Positions 55,300-62,539 are shown, numbered from the stretch's first letter. The stretch: 64,000 bases of DNA from Pelagomonas calceolata (GCA_918797485.1 CAKKNE010000001.1:930001-994000), one strand, 5' to 3'. The notes: generated from the sequence alone by a model not told the origin. A program made the numbers and translations.

Positions 55300-55443
55300 A
55301 GTTTCAAGCCTTCCACATCGACTCAAAAGCAGCTTGCCCGCCGCTCTCGCACGCCTGGTTACGCACTCCACGAGCTATCGATTGGAGCCATGCGCAGCGC
55401 TGCGACGACGCCGCACGATTCCACTCGTCCTGGCAGGAGCTCC

Positions 55444-56719
55444 ATGTTGCCCAGCCTGCTGCTCCTCGCGACGACGAGCGCCCTCGTCCTGCCGCCACGA
55501 GCAGCACCGACGCACACAAAACTCCGAGCAGCGGTCCTCGACCCCTTGAATGCGGAGGACCTCGGGGATAGTGCCACGGTCCCGGAGCTCGCCGAGGCCG
55601 TCGCGCACAAGGGCGCCGCGGACGTCACCGCGTTATCCTTACTGGAAGAGATCCGGGGCCTGAAGTTCTTTTCGCTCTACTCCATTGATCTACTCGCAAA
55701 TTGCGCGTATTTGGGCGGGGCGCCCGAAGAGTGCGAATTCGACGCATGTGAGGTCCTACCGGTCGACCCCGTGCCTCTGCACCTCATGGAGCGCGACCGG
55801 AAGGAGCGGGGTTTCGAATTGGATGCCTGGGCGCGCTTCGACCTGCCTTCTGAAGATTATTATGATTTGGAGGAGTATCCCGAGGGCTATACTGGTTATG
55901 ATGGGAGTAGCGTGTGGAAGTTTTTGTACGAGAACCTAACCTTCGGCAAGGAAGCGATCGAGGAAGAAAACGACCCGAACGGCTGGCACAACGTCTTCGA
56001 CAGAGCTGTCAGTGGGTTGCATGCGTCGATCGCGTGCCACGTCGTCGACGACTACTCGGGTCCGCGGGCCAGTGTCTGACGCGTCACCGCGACCGCCCGC
56101 GCTCCACGCCATCGCCGCAACCCATCCCCGCGCAGACGACGACGACGAGTGCGCCGCGGAATACAAGAGGCGTATTGCTTGCGATCCGGAACGACTGTCG
56201 AACCTGCGCTTCGCCTTCGCGATCGTATTAGCTGGAGTGAGGGAGTCGAAACAGGCGATGCAAAAAACCCGTTTTGACGAGGATGCGAAGATCGACGCGT
56301 CGACGCGGGAACTCGTCCAGGGCTTGTTTGACGACCACTCCTTCATGGACGGCGAGAACATCAAGCGGGTCGCGCCGTTACTGCGAGCCGCGGCAGCCCA
56401 AGCGTCGGAGTGCTCCGTGTTGACCAATGAGGACGACGACGAGTGGCTCGAGGAGACGGGCGTCTGGCAGGTGCGGCAGCGCTCTCGAGCGGTATTGCGC
56501 CTCTTCGACTGCGTGCAGTGCGGCGCGTGCCGCATCCACGGCAAGGTGGCTTGGTTCGGGGTCGCGACGGCTCTGAAACTCATCTACTCGGACGCGTCGA
56601 CGCGGCCACTCTGTCGGGTGGAAGTGGCGGCTCTGTTGACGACTCTCGCAAAGCTAGCAACAGCGGTACGCTTCGCGGAGGAGATGGAGGAGATATGTTG
56701 CGAGCAGGCGGCGGCGTAA
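55444..56719 (+). CDS. ERO1-like oxidoreductin; intron 56060-56135
   Basis: YYDLEEYPEGYTGYDG..VW, VSGLHASI, PERLSNL, FDCVQCGACRIHGKV. Confidence 0.85.
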
Positions 56720-57917: not shown

Positions 57918-59188
57918 ATGGTCGAAGGCCACTCCGTCCACCGCGTGGCGGCGCGCCACCGCCAAAAACTCGTCGGCAAAAAGTTCGCGTGCACGTCCCC
58001 GAACGGCCGGTTCACAGAAGGAGCTGCCGCCATCAGCAACAAGCCCTTCCGCGCGATCGAGGCCGTCGGCAAGAACCTCTTCGCATGGTTCGGCAGCGGC
58101 GGCGCCGACGACGTCTGCGTGCACGTCCACTTTGGCATGGCGGGCAACTGGGCGGTCTTCGAGAGCGACGCCAACGGCAACGTGCACGAGCCGGCGACGA
58201 CGGCGACGACAAGACTCAGGATGGAAGGCGGCGGCGTCGTTTCCCACCTAAGTGCGATGACCGTGAAGCACGGCTCGCGCGCGGGGCTCTACGAGCCGAA
58301 GCGCGCGACGCTCGGCGAAGATCCGCTGCGCGAGGACGCCGACGTGCGCCTCCGAGTCAGAAGAGTCAAGTTCCTTTGTTTCGCCCGCGCGTGTGCCCCC
58401 GACGACGTCTCACACAGGTGGAGCGGCTCTGGCGCAAGGTCTCGAAGTCCAAGAAAAGCATCGGCGCCCTCATCATGGACCAGTCGTGCTTCTGTGGCCC
58501 GGGCAACATCTATCGCGCGGAGATTCTGTTCAAAGCTCGTATCCACCCCGACCAGCTGGGCAAGGACCTCTCGCGCGCCGAGTTCGACAAGGTGTGGCGC
58601 CACAGCGTGGAGCTGTTGCAGCGCGGCTTTCGGGAGGGCTCCATCCTCACGGTTGATCCTGCGGATGACGCGCGGTACGGCCCCGACCTCCGCCGCTACG
58701 TCTACAACAAGTCCCGTTGCCCCATTTGTCGCGGTCCCGTGATGTCGTGGGACATCCAGACGCGGACGGCCTACGCTTGCCTCGCCTGCCAGCCGCTGCG
58801 CACGGTCCAGGAGGCGCCACCGTCGCCGAAGAAGTCTAAGAAGCGCCCCGCCGCGTCGACGCCCACCAAGGCCAAGAAGGCGAAGCCGACGCCGGTCAAG
58901 CGCTTCCGCTCGCACTGTGTGGAGGACGCCGCCAGCGACATGTCCCCCGAGATGCTGACGGTCAAGGAGCTCAAGGCGAAGCTCAAGGCGCACGGAGCGC
59001 CCACGGACGGGCTCAAGTCGGTGCTCGTGGCGCGGCTGACGGCCCTGGTGGAGCCGACGATGCGCTCGGCCGAGGACGCGGCGGCCGACCGCGCGCGGGC
59101 GGGCGAGTCTCGCGCGGTCGAGCACGTCGCCGACCTCCACCCGACGCAAGCCGTGCGCGCGGCGCGGAAGGCGCGCGCGCGCAAGTGA
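57918..59188 (+). CDS. Fpg/Nei-family DNA glycosylase with zinc finger and SAP domain; intron 58344-58417
   Basis: MVEGHSVHR, GKNLF, HFGMAG, LIMDQ..GPGNIYRAEILF (H2TH), CPIC..CLACQ, SAP LTVKELKAKLK. Confidence 0.9.
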
Positions 59189-59301: not shown

Positions 59302-59323
59302 CTAGCGGCCTGTAAGACACTAG
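59302..59323. promoter_or_regulatory. Conserved CTAG element (reverse orientation)
   Basis: ctagcggcctgtaagacactag about 65 bp upstream of the ATG at 59389. Confidence 0.55.
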
Positions 59324-59388
59324 GGATCCCTACCCAGAAGGAGATCACACGGAAGGGCAGCCATTTAGGCTGCCTCCGCGTGTGAGAG

Positions 59389-62300
59389 ATGAGCAATAGA
59401 CCACCCACTGACTTCTGCGTGGGCCTGGTGATCGGTCCCGCCGGCGGCGCGCGCAACACGTACCTGAAGGAAATGTTTGAGTACAAGTGGCGCCGGCCGC
59501 ACAACTGGGGCGCCGACGAGCCCGTCATTTCCGCGCTGGCGCGATTAGAACGGGGCGCGGCGGACGAGGAGGAGAAGGCGGTCCGGGCCACGCGGCGCCT
59601 CGCGGCCTGCGGTCTGAGCTCCGTACCGAGTTGGATGAGACCGTATGACTGCCTGTCCAACGGCGAGGCCGCCCGCGCGGACGTCGCCGCAGCAATCGCA
59701 ACACACGAGAGCAATAAAAATCGGTTCTGCGTGGTGAACGACTTCGCCTGCGTCGTGAATCGCGACGCCGCCATGAGCATGGCCTGCGCAATCGGCAAAT
59801 ATGCGCGACGGGAGCGCCTGACGGGACTCGTCCTGGCCACGGCGCATGAGGACTGCTGCGCGTATCTCCAGCCGGACTGGATACTGGATAGTGCGACGGG
59901 AGCAATGACGCGGCGGCCCGGCCCGGCGCGGAGCCCCGTGGTCACCTGGGAGTGCGACTGGAGCGGCTGCCCGATGAGCACGAACTGGAAGACGCCGCCG
60001 CCGGCCGAACGGCGCGGGACGCGCAACACCGACCTCGTGCGCGAGATCTCGAACACCTACGACGTCAGCCCCGAGGCCATCGAGAGGATCGTCCTCGGCG
60101 ACGGCGCGCTGCCCGACGCGGTCGCGACGAATGTGACGATGGGCCGCGTCGCAGAACTCGCGAGCCAGGCGTTTGACTTCGTGGCGTGCAGTGTCATCAG
60201 AGAGGTTGCCTTCAGCTACCGATGCGGTCGACACTCACCGCTCGATAACGACACAGGACTTCTATGGTGAATCGACGTTCGTGCCGCCCGACTTCCCGCG
60301 AAAGAGCCTCGCCCAGGACTGGGATATCGGAGTCGTCCATGGCCCGAGCGGCTCCGGCAAGACGACGGTGCTCCGGCAGCTGTTCGGCGGCGCCGAGGGT
60401 AAGGTCGCCACGGCCGCGCCGGATTGGAACACTACGCACGTCGTTTCAGCGGCGTTCAAGAAAAAGTTCGGCGCGGGCGACGCCTCCGCACGCCTCGACG
60501 CGTGCGCACTGTCGGCGGAGGAGCGCGCCATGCGGTTCTCGGAGCTCTCCGCGTGCGCCCGGGCGCGCGCTCAAGTCGCTTGGCTGTTGGCGGAAGACGC
60601 GGTGCTCGACGAGTTCACGTCTCTCGCGCCACGACCGCTGGCGTGGGACGTGGCGAGGGGAGTTTCAGGGTACGTGCGACAACACGCTTTGAAGCGCGTC
60701 GTCGTGGCCTCTGTTCACGAGGACGTCGTAGCGCACCTTCGGCCGAGCTGGCTGTTCCCGACCGCCGTCGCGACCTCGTGCTGGCACGACGATGGAAAGA
60801 AGCCCAAGCCGACGGGCGAAGTTCGCTACGGCTGCCTCGTGATGCTGAATAGCGATCGTATCGCGGCGGCCGCGCCGCCGCGCCGCAATCCCAACCTCTA
60901 CGAGCCGCCCCGGGTGACGCTCCAGATGCGACGGGCGCCGTACTATCACTACGCGCCGTTCGAGAAGCACCACTACCTCTGCGGCGGCGTCCAGGACGGG
61001 GCCTGGTGCTTCGAGGTGACTTTGCACGGGCGGCCCGTCGGCTTCCACGCGGTGCAGTCCGCGTTCGGCGAAGTTGGTGCCGGCGAGGGCACGACGGGTG
61101 CGAGCCGCGAACACCGCGTCGTAATCCTGCCGGACTTCCAGGGCATCGGGCTCGGCTGGCAGATGTCCGAAGTCGTGGCGGCGAGACATGCGGAGATGGG
61201 CCGACGCTTCATGAGCATCACCATGCACCACACGTTCGGCGGGGGGCGCGACCGATCGGAGCGGTGGCGTCCCAAGCCGAAAAATCACGCCGCGGACAAG
61301 TACGAGGCCTCGCACGACACGAGCCATCGTGCGCTACAGGCGGCTGGGACGTGGGCGCCGACGCCGCGCGATCGCCTCCGGCCCAGCTATCGTCATGAAT
61401 ATGTTGCAGAAGGCGCCGCGCGCGAGGCTTTCCTCCGGGCCCTGTCGACGAACATCCCGAAGCACAAGTGTAAAGGAGAAGGCTGCTCGCACTGCTGGAG
61501 CAACCGCGACATGGTGTGCCGCCGCATCAAGTGCCTGGACTCGAAGGGGAAAAAGCTGCCCAAAAAGGACCTGGAGGGCACGCCCTGGGGCACCCCGCCC
61601 GCGCGGCCGCTGGGCGTGGCGGCGCCGCCGACGGTCGACGTGTCCAAGCGCCGCGAATCACCGGCGCTGACGAAACGGCTCGAGAAGGTCGAGGTCGTCG
61701 GCGGGCGCGGGCCCAAGCGCCAGGCGGCCCAGCCGAAGGGGTCCACGAAGGCGAAGAAGGTCGCGGAAAAGGCGCGGGCGCGCGACACGGGAGGTCGCGA
61801 CTGGGCCTATGACAGGCGGAAGAAAGCCTGGATCGTGTGCGCGGCGGACGCGGCTGATTTCACCCTAGACCATGAGGCGGTCGGCGACGAGGTTCGCTGC
61901 GATGTTCATGGAGAAGCGTTGGACGGGGAGGTCCTGGGCGTCGCCGAGGGTCCGCCGTGGCGCTGCCGCATTAGATACGAGAGCGGTCTCCAGGAGGATC
62001 TAGACGAGAAGCAGTTTGGGATGGCGCGCAGGGCACACACCACGTGGCAGAACAAGCTCGCAAAAGGGGCCAAGCCGCCGCGCGCCGCGCCGAAGCGCAA
62101 GGCGCCCGCGAAGCCGGCCGCGAAGCGCCGCAAGCCGCGGTACGAGGACGACGACGACGAGGCTTTTACGGCGCCGGCGCCGGCGCGTACCGGTACCGGC
62201 GGGCGAAGGTCCGCGCGGGCCACGGCGACGAGGGGGAGCATGCGCGAGGCCTCCGACGACGAGGACTTCGAATTGGTCGATGTTGACGAACCCGCGCCCG

Positions 62301-62539
62301 CGCCCGCGCCGCCGCCGCCAAAACGGGCGCGGACAGCGCCCCAGCAAGAGTTCAAGAAGGGTGACCGAGTCGACGCCAAGTTCGGGTACCGGTGGTACCG
62401 GGCCACGGTCGACGAGGTGATCCGCGACGCCGCGGGAAAGATCACGAAGTACGAGATCCGCTGGCCGTCGAACGACGACTGCAACCGCATCGCGCGCGGG
62501 AACGTTCGCGCGCCCGTCGATGGGACCGAGGAGGGGTAA
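59389..62539 (+). CDS. Tandem ABC-like ATPase + Mom-like GNAT acetyltransferase + Tudor/Agenet-like domains; intron 60181-60256
   Basis: Degenerate ATPase 1 (GPAGGARNT, LSNGE, NDF); ATPase 2 (GPSGSGKTT, LDEFTS, HED); GNAT (HHYL, RVVILPDFQGIGLG); FKKGDRVDAKF..WYRATV..YEIRW. Confidence 0.8.

What the first reader, a model, noticed from the sequence alone, without database searches (positions are those of the whole stretch)
59389..62539. Candidate eukaryotic DNA hypermodification enzyme: ABC-ATPase x2 + Mom-like GNAT + Tudor readers
Seen in sequence: a degenerate and an intact soluble ABC-like ATPase domain with no TM segments, a GNAT with HHYL and RVVILPDFQGIGLG, a small Cys/His cluster, basic NLS-like tracts and two Tudor/Agenet-like domains (~61880 and ~62350). 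From memory, ABC-ATPase-GNAT fusions of this type occur in phages and bacteria and have been linked computationally to the phage Mu Mom adenine-modifying family. Inference: a horizontally acquired base-modifying enzyme coupled to histone-mark readers would write a non-canonical epigenetic DNA mark. The adjacent Nei glycosylase could be a partner or coincidental. I know of no experimental characterisation.
Basis: partly seen in the sequence, partly recalled or inferred. Interest (0 to 1): 0.85.

Follow-up and report, generated by a model that had tools for sequence, protein, structure and literature searches.

The report
Algal ATP-driven nucleobase acyltransferase candidate
A marine alga expresses one spliced gene that joins two ATP-binding modules, an acetyltransferase-type domain and two likely chromatin-reading domains; its likely job is to add an acetyl group to a base, probably cytosine in DNA, which would be an untested kind of epigenetic mark.

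Summary
RNA reads splice the two ORFs into one 1024-aa protein: ABC-ABC-GNAT, a Cys/His cluster and two Tudor-like domains. It is under purifying selection (GNAT dN/dS 0.13). It belongs to the phage 'ABC ATPase + GNAT' family predicted, but never tested, to acylate DNA bases. Two corrections. (1) Both ATPase domains are half-degenerate in a complementary way, predicting one composite ATP site; the pattern recurs across 46 tandem proteins. (2) The GNAT is not a Mom. It keeps the acyl-CoA loop and lacks Mom's Ser/Asp/Tyr, but shares the His-Tyr pair and arginine of both Mom and TmcA/NAT10. Phage relatives carry a convergent ASCH gene (ac4C-eraser family) within 800 bp in 9 of 50 records. Best guess: an ATP-coupled, acetyl-CoA nucleobase acetyltransferase, likely making N4-acetylcytosine in DNA (0.4). 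RNA or protein targets remain open. It sits in a protist clade (pelagophytes, dinoflagellates, foraminifera), so it is no recent transfer. Nei is only a neighbour. The scan met this family before on other DNA, including a broken foraminiferal copy. New variant of a known kind; interest 0.6.

The parts
59389..60180 (+). Exon 1 (aa 1-264): NBD1 plus a helical linker
   Evidence: phrog_11143 E 3.5e-38
59407..59931 (+). ABC NBD1, signature donor: Walker A without Lys (GPAGGARNT, 59434-59460), GLSSVPSW motif and LSNGE signature intact (59611-59667), Walker B NDF without the catalytic Glu
   Evidence: dN/dS 0.29-0.31 against two orthologues
60181..60256 (+). 76-nt GT..AG intron, absent from three related genes
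   Evidence: joints; L208, L209, L210 read through
60257..62539 (+). Exon 2 (aa 265-1024)
60266..60868 (+). ABC NBD2, catalytic half: GPSGSGKT, VLDEF and H-loop intact; signature decayed to LSACA
60908..61411 (+). GNAT domain: H503-Y504 pair, beta4 R551, Q559-G-x-G-x-G acyl-CoA loop
61463..61495 (+). Small Cys/His cluster (H-x-C-x4-C-x-H-C), predicted metal site
   Evidence: the three Cys and inner His are kept in all 10 rows of the closest-relative alignment, the first His in 9 of 10; metal binding not tested
61847..62062 (+). Tudor-like domain 1 (four strands plus C-terminal helix), no evident aromatic cage; missing in the P0002/P0170 orthologue type
   Evidence: pLDDT 84-89; no Pfam hit for the window's copy; PTM_DIR17_Tudor E 0.16 for a relative; dN/dS 0.08 against L209
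62123..62332 (+). Low-complexity region with basic NLS-like tracts (KRRK 887-890, KRAR 953-956)
   Evidence: sequence; disordered in the model; localisation not tested
62345..62510 (+). Tudor/Agenet-like domain 2 with aromatic F973, W977/Y978, W1000 (partial cage by my recalled pattern)
   Evidence: pLDDT 88-94; Atlas named hits Tudor/Agenet 0.87, lead only; PDB 5zwx E 0.024; present in 8 of 10 rows (the other two are truncated)
57918..59188 (+). Neighbouring Fpg/Nei glycosylase with SAP domain (intron 58344-58417); separate transcript, not counted as part of the system

Best explanation
This is an expressed, conserved 1024-aa ABC-ABC-GNAT protein that likely works as an ATP-driven, acyl-CoA-dependent nucleobase N-acyltransferase on nuclear DNA, most likely writing N4-acetylcytosine. 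Predicted mechanism: the two NBDs fold head-to-tail as a covalent copy of the phage enzyme's presumed homodimer. Only one composite ATP site is predicted to be live (Walker A/B and H-loop of NBD2 with the LSNGE signature of NBD1). ATP turnover would open or flip the target base into the GNAT site, as the helicase does for TmcA/NAT10. There the His503-Tyr504 pair and Arg551 would activate the exocyclic amine for transfer from acetyl-CoA held by the QGxGxG loop. The Tudor-like domains and basic tracts would steer it to chromatin. Shown: gene structure, expression, folds, motif conservation, family, selection. Inferred: activity, donor, base, DNA versus RNA, targeting.
For: Family: hits include QAX98348.1, the exemplar of the predicted DNA-base acylation system. 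Chemistry: His-Tyr is kept in 150 and 151 of 152 and the Arg in 152 of 152 GNAT domains. They align with TmcA's His-Tyr and beta4 Arg and with Mom H58-Y59/R111, above 30 column-shuffled controls each. NAT10 H548/Y549 are essential and conserved in TmcA, and ATP is strictly required (PMC13433802 passages). Mom H58A, Y59A and R111 mutants lose most or all activity (PMC13219725 section 13). TmcA is Foldseek's first PDB row (E 1.7e-5, but rmsd 16.6 over 449 columns). Cytosine: an ASCH gene with an intact GxKxx[E/T]xR-type motif lies convergently within 800 bp in 9 of 50 phage records, against 0.33 expected by random placement. ASCH proteins remove ac4C (bioRxiv 10.64898/2026.02.27.708502 passages). 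DNA: among 56 phage loci, 14 have a ParB_N and 17 a terminase neighbour (ParB partly selected by the query). Among 42 others, 4 have a DNA methyltransferase and 2 a Mom-like neighbour. 5 of 60 long relatives carry PHD, SAP, Tudor or SBNO domains. One live ATP site: K+E+H intact in 13 of 46 first NBDs, 39 of 46 second NBDs and 59 of 62 single-NBD proteins; the GLxxVPxW motif is kept in 41 of 46 first and 3 of 46 second NBDs. Selection.
Against: No member of the family has been assayed in any paper I could search. Profile links to TmcA and Mom are weak (probabilities 34% and 12%; the TmcA profile is shallow and enterobacterial), and I had no profile control from ordinary protein GNATs. The closest GNAT folds by Z are ordinary acyl-CoA enzymes for small molecules and protein N-termini (1y9k, RimI, Naa50, Ard1). 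A GNAT-only profile finds NAT10 only at E 0.7 and ranks generic GNATs higher. The ASCH link is absent in the phage clade nearer the eukaryotic genes (1 of 46 records, not adjacent), and related phages are not independent. 53 of 60 long relatives show no extra Pfam domain, and 2 of 60 carry RNA-methyltransferase domains (SpoU, UPF0020). The Tudor assignments are all below threshold. Phage gene-context counts have no matched control. phiE255 pairs the gene with a formyltransferase, so the acyl group may vary.
Confidence: 0.4

Rival explanations
1. Same chemistry, RNA target: in eukaryotes the enzyme became a second NAT10-like ac4C writer on a structured RNA, with the ABC pair replacing the helicase and the Tudor-like domains binding methyl-arginine RNP proteins.
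For: TmcA-like His-Tyr, Arg and CoA loop. SpoU and UPF0020 RNA-methyltransferase fusions in 2 of 60 relatives. A neighbour annotated 'tRNA-methyltransferase' in a Gordonia phage. The cited ASCH assays were on tRNA and nucleosides. Soluble tandem ABCs (ABCE1, ABCF) act on ribosomes (established knowledge; among top rows).
Against: Phage neighbours are DNA packaging, replication and methylation genes, with no RNA-modification family among the 150 and 146 neighbours scanned. Chromatin/DNA-type fusions (5) outnumber RNA-type fusions (2).
Confidence: 0.2
2. ATP-regulated protein acetyltransferase: a histone or chromatin-protein lysine or N-terminal acetyltransferase recruited by Tudor/PHD-type readers.
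For: The top GNAT folds include RimI, Naa50, Naa10/Ard1 and NatC. Canonical acetyl-CoA loop. Reader-plus-writer layouts are typical of histone acetyltransferases (established knowledge). Phages use GNATs on host proteins (PMC7824862 passage).
Against: The invariant His-Tyr and Arg match the two known nucleobase-acylating GNAT families. Protein GNATs do not need an ATPase. The ASCH link points to an acylated cytosine.
Confidence: 0.2
3. One reading: a Mom-type enzyme that hypermodifies adenine N6 using aminoacyl-tRNA.
For: Shared His-Tyr and Arg. The phage gene can sit after the tail-fibre genes of a Mu-like phage, where Mu has gin-com-mom. Mom-type proteins appear in the viral fold search at ranks 14 and 32.
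Against: Mom's D149 and Y159 (11 of 11 Mom homologues) and S124 (Ser 9, Thr 2 of 11) have no counterpart; QGxGxG stands there instead. No hit to the Mom PHROG at E<=1, although that family (phrog_1384) finds true Moms at E<1e-30. One phage, AsFcp_1, carries both genes separately.
Confidence: 0.07
4. Non-catalytic or small-molecule role: a domesticated scaffold or a metabolite acetyltransferase whose base-modifying ancestry no longer applies.
For: The pelagophyte branch is long and has drifted at family-conserved positions (HP to HH at the beta5 motif; W to Y before the His-Tyr pair). The best GNAT fold is a small-molecule acetyltransferase.
Against: All putative catalytic residues are intact. 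The GNAT is the most constrained catalytic part (dN/dS 0.13 against 0.18-0.20 for the Nei gene). The one predicted ATP site is complete.
Confidence: 0.13

Closest known systems
Phage/prokaryotic 'GNAT coupled with an ABC ATPase' predicted DNA-base acylation system (Iyer, Zhang, Burroughs, Aravind 2013, as cited in PMC7824862; exemplar QAX98348.1; PHROG phrog_11143)
   Same: Homologous ABC NBD fused to the same GNAT (27% identity over 90% of the query, E 7e-20), with all invariant motifs kept.
   Different: Eukaryotic, spliced, two NBDs with complementary decay, added Cys/His cluster, basic tracts and Tudor-like domains; no ParB, terminase or ASCH neighbour among the adjacent genes.
TmcA / NAT10 / Kre33 RNA cytidine N4-acetyltransferases (PMC13433802)
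   Same: ATPase coupled to an acetyl-CoA GNAT; His-Tyr pair before the core strands and beta4 Arg in register; Foldseek's first PDB row.
   Different: The motor is an ABC pair, not a helicase; no tRNA-binding or N-terminal TmcA domains; PF13718 not among the listed matches; substrate unknown.
Phage Mu Mom (Gly-tRNA-dependent adenine N6 hypermodification; PMC13219725)
   Same: GNAT fold; H58-Y59 and R111 equivalents; DNA-metabolism and packaging contexts in phages.
   Different: Mom has no ATPase, has S124/D149/R151/Y159 and an HTH-like insertion, and lacks QGxGxG; this protein has the CoA loop and lacks those residues.
Soluble tandem ABC ATPases (ABCE1, ABCF/EttA, eEF3) and asymmetric ABC heterodimers
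   Same: Two NBDs in one chain, no TM segments, with a pattern that predicts one live and one dead composite site.
   Different: Arose by duplication inside the ABC-GNAT family (both NBDs match phrog_11143), short NBDs, fused to a GNAT.

Membership tests
Phage-type ABC ATPase + GNAT family (phrog_11143) | Sequence homology to the family exemplar across NBD and GNAT | tested here: met
Phage-type ABC ATPase + GNAT family (phrog_11143) | Invariant motifs (GxxGxGK, DEFTS, HHY, RxVxLPxxQGxGxG, W) | tested here: met
   (spread over two NBDs)
Phage-type ABC ATPase + GNAT family (phrog_11143) | Acylation of a DNA base (predicted, never shown) | not testable with these tools
   no assay found in searches
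Mom family | His-Tyr (H58-Y59) and beta4 Arg (R111) | tested here: met
Mom family | S124, D149, Y159 motifs in place of the CoA pyrophosphate loop | tested here: not met
   Mom homologues keep Ser/Thr, Asp and Tyr; this family has QGxGxG and SxTxH
Mom family | Match to the Mom profile (phrog_1384) | tested here: not met
   no hit at E<=1; the profile detects real Moms
Mom family | Structural match to the Mom crystal structure above other GNATs | tested here: inconclusive
   not among the listed rows; a 760-aa model was searched
Mom family | Gly-tRNA donor, 6-NcmdA product | not testable with these tools
   needs an assay
TmcA/NAT10 | Catalytic His-Tyr, beta4 Arg and acetyl-CoA loop | tested here: met
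   (weak profile alignment, E 4e-4)
TmcA/NAT10 | Helicase-type ATPase and tRNA-binding domain architecture | tested here: not met
   ABC fold and ABC motifs instead; works like, is not a member
TmcA/NAT10 | ac4C formation on RNA | not testable with these tools
   needs an assay
Tudor/Agenet readers | Tudor-type beta-barrel fold | tested here: inconclusive
   confident small beta domains; all profile and Atlas hits sub-threshold; not folded or searched alone
Tudor/Agenet readers | Aromatic cage and methyl-lysine/arginine binding | not testable with these tools
   domain 2 has three aromatic positions and domain 1 none, by a recalled pattern; binding needs peptide arrays
ABC transporter | Transmembrane domains or a neighbouring permease | tested here: not met
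   max hydropathy 0.91; neighbours are Nei and a U-box protein

The most novel reading that the evidence does not exclude
The phage ABC-GNAT family is the DNA counterpart of TmcA/NAT10 and writes N4-acetyl-deoxycytosine, with ASCH as its eraser or recycler. Protists took it up long ago, fused the dimer into a one-site ABC motor and coupled it to chromatin readers. That would make this a dedicated eukaryotic writer of an acylated DNA base, aimed by histone marks.
Probability: 0.2. Interest if true: 0.9.

Novelty: new variant of a known kind. Interest (0 to 1): 0.6.

Why it matters
If the best reading holds, abundant ocean protists (pelagophytes, dinoflagellates, foraminifera) carry an unrecognised base modification and its writer. 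N4-acetyldeoxycytosine has been reported in plant DNA (PMC8722123, search listing only), and a dedicated writer would make its origin and function testable. The work also turns a prediction cited since 2013 ('some acyl group on some DNA base') into a specific assay: acetyl-CoA donor, His-Tyr catalysis, one ATP site, cytosine N4, ASCH as eraser. The small single-NBD phage proteins are easy surrogates for that assay.

Tried and rejected
No whole genome is held for the window, so copy number rests on loose read ends and P. calceolata records. A single-sequence fold failed (pLDDT 34); the alignment-based model was used. The complex predictor was not available, so NBD1-NBD2 pairing was not modelled. 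Sequence searches of the PDB with the GNAT alone gave nothing specific: best E 0.28 for the single sequence, the further rows being chance hits at E>=1.2; best E 0.002 for the profile, to a generic GNAT, with NAT10 at 0.7 and Mom unlisted. Profile-versus-single-sequence comparisons with Mom and TmcA were not significant. Mom's crystal structure was not among the top 50 rows of three PDB fold searches, which does not exclude it. The first metagenome scan found nothing. ASCH was not linked in the 46 records of the other phage clade. Nei partnership rejected: Nei precedes two orthologues, but so does plain synteny (the U-box gene also follows in L208), the paralogue locus L210 shows no Nei in 5 kb upstream, and reads show separate transcripts. 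Recent transfer rejected: GC3 0.84 against 0.73-0.86 in 11 other long ORFs, and a broad protist clade. Assembly artefact or pseudogene rejected. The two key Aravind-group papers (PMC3763556, PMC7544218) are not held. They and their supplements may already list eukaryotic members or the ASCH link; from memory the 2013 abstract mentions stramenopile algae and ASCH domains. Literature searches found no description of the tandem eukaryotic form and no assay.

Full report
Gene structure. The window is a compact, GC-rich eukaryotic contig. The two ORFs of the finding are one gene. PolyA reads skip 60181-60256 (GT..AG) in 4 of 4 runs of one sample, 36 joint reads in all. Contigs of about 3.05 kb from three further studies cross the same joint, while the fourth run laid, a marine metatranscriptome, had no contig over it. 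The joined frame gives 1024 aa, and three related genes read through this point with no intron. Loose read ends at 61112/61159 and 62450/62495 translate to stretches of P0215, a protein named Pelagomonas calceolata by its source. I infer a pelagophyte host with a second, expressed paralogue that has more Tudor-like repeats.

Family. Both exons match PHROG phrog_11143. tblastn finds 49 phage records, and hit H3 is QAX98348.1. PMC7824862 (passages read) names that protein as the exemplar of a 'GNAT coupled with an ABC ATPase' predicted to acylate a DNA base, and lists it separately from the Mom family. The 2013 source paper and the 2020 ABC classification are not held. A full-library search gave 1215 representatives at E<=0.001, of which the best 150 were listed; I analysed 163 proteins plus the window's.

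Two half-dead ATPases. NBD1 reads GPAGGARNT / GLSSVPSW / LSNGE / VVNDF / ATAHED, and NBD2 reads GPSGSGKT / LSACA / VLDEF / ASVHED. In ABC dimers each ATP site pairs the Walker motifs of one NBD with the signature of the other (established knowledge), so this predicts one complete site and one dead site. The pattern is family-wide. Among 46 tandem proteins, Lys+Glu+His are intact in 13 first and 39 second NBDs, the GLxxVPxW motif in 41 and 3, and the signature in 45 and 36; 59 of 62 single-NBD proteins keep all three catalytic residues (Fisher p 6e-8, 1e-16 and 0.007, not corrected for kinship). Two proteins show the mirror order. The pairing itself was not modelled.

Spread and age. In a FastTree of the C-terminal NBD+GNAT unit (121 rows; fragments and six probably truncated proteins left out), 41 of 45 tandem proteins, including the window's, form one group with SH-like support 95. 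Named members of that group are Aureococcus anophagefferens, Pelagodinium beii, Polarella glacialis and Nonionella stella; most rows carry no name. The root and donor were not tested. Codon GC is host-like. dN/dS against two orthologues is 0.13-0.14 for the GNAT, 0.21-0.31 for the NBDs and 0.28-0.30 for Tudor-like domain 2; it is 0.08 for domain 1 (one orthologue) and 0.18-0.20 for the Nei gene. The gene is thus maintained, and any transfer from phages or bacteria is old.

Which base, which polymer. An earlier scan note suggested an ASCH partner, which I tested. In 50 of 65 non-redundant phage records of the ParB-linked clade, 14 hold an ASCH match (13 over the cut-off). Nine lie convergently within 800 bp downstream of the ABC-GNAT gene, all with the GxKxx[E/T]xR-type motif, against 0.33 expected by random placement. 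ASCH proteins remove ac4C (bioRxiv 10.64898/2026.02.27.708502, passages; supplements closed). Against this, only 1 of 46 records of the clade nearer the eukaryotic genes has an ASCH, and it is far away. For DNA: 14 of 56 loci have a ParB_N and 17 a terminase neighbour (150 of 171 same-strand ORFs scanned; ParB was partly selected by the query). Of 42 other loci, 4 have a DNA methyltransferase, 2 a Mom-like gene, 2 ParB and 4 a small terminase within two genes. These counts have no matched control. Among 60 long relatives, 5 carry PHD, SAP (two, below cut-off), PTM/DIR17 Tudor or Strawberry-notch domains, 2 carry RNA methyltransferase domains, and 53 show nothing extra; some fusions may be assembly artefacts.

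C-terminal domains and Nei. Two small beta-rich domains are predicted with confidence. Their nearest named matches are Tudor/Agenet-type, but every score is below threshold. Domain 1 is missing in one orthologue type. Reader function is therefore a guess. Nei precedes two orthologues but was not found in the 5 kb before the paralogue, and the U-box neighbour is also syntenic where it could be seen, so adjacency looks like plain gene order.

Verdict. A real, expressed, conserved gene; a eukaryotic tandem variant of a family that was predicted but, in the papers I could search, never assayed. The scan has met the family before, including a broken foraminiferal tandem copy. Odds: DNA base acylation 0.4, RNA 0.2, protein 0.2, Mom-type 0.07, other 0.13. 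Interest 0.6.

Noticed in passing
window 58344-58417 and 60181-60256: Both short introns (74 and 76 nt; Nei gene and this gene) are absent from the orthologous 27-kb contig L209, and the second also from L208 and L210, which suggests recent intron gain in this lineage.
   Followed up: partly
window 59302-59332: A 31-nt stretch just upstream of the gene is matched by abundant opposite-strand reads that continue into other sequence on both sides: a short dispersed repeat shared with another expressed locus.
   Followed up: no
P0215/P0216; locus L210: An expressed paralogue with the same degenerate NBD pattern and, by eye, about five Tudor-like repeats; the NCBI model P0216 stops at 1015 aa and lacks the last ones.
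   Followed up: partly
L209:7007: The closest orthologue changes frame just after the Cys/His cluster; assembly error or real truncation not resolved.
   Followed up: no
L003:4872-6604 (Burkholderia phage phiE255): The ABC-GNAT gene follows the tail-fibre genes, after a 54-codon ORF, and overlaps a formyltransferase gene, hinting at a formyl or two-step acyl modification in some phages.
   Followed up: no
L002:3860-5032 (phage pT24) and L089: The ABC and GNAT halves are annotated or found as separate reading frames in these phages.
   Followed up: no
L011:195-928 (Microbacterium phage MenE): A Mom-like gene lies between a ParB-like gene and a phage tRNA-Gly, which fits Mom's use of Gly-tRNA.
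   Followed up: no
P0034 and P0077: Two tandem proteins have the catalytic NBD first and the signature-donor NBD second, and fall outside the main tandem clade: a likely independent duplication with the mirror pattern.
   Followed up: partly
window 55300-56719: An ERO1-like oxidoreductin (name from recall, not searched) is spread over two overlapping frames, so an intron or a frameshift lies near 55940-56079.
   Followed up: no
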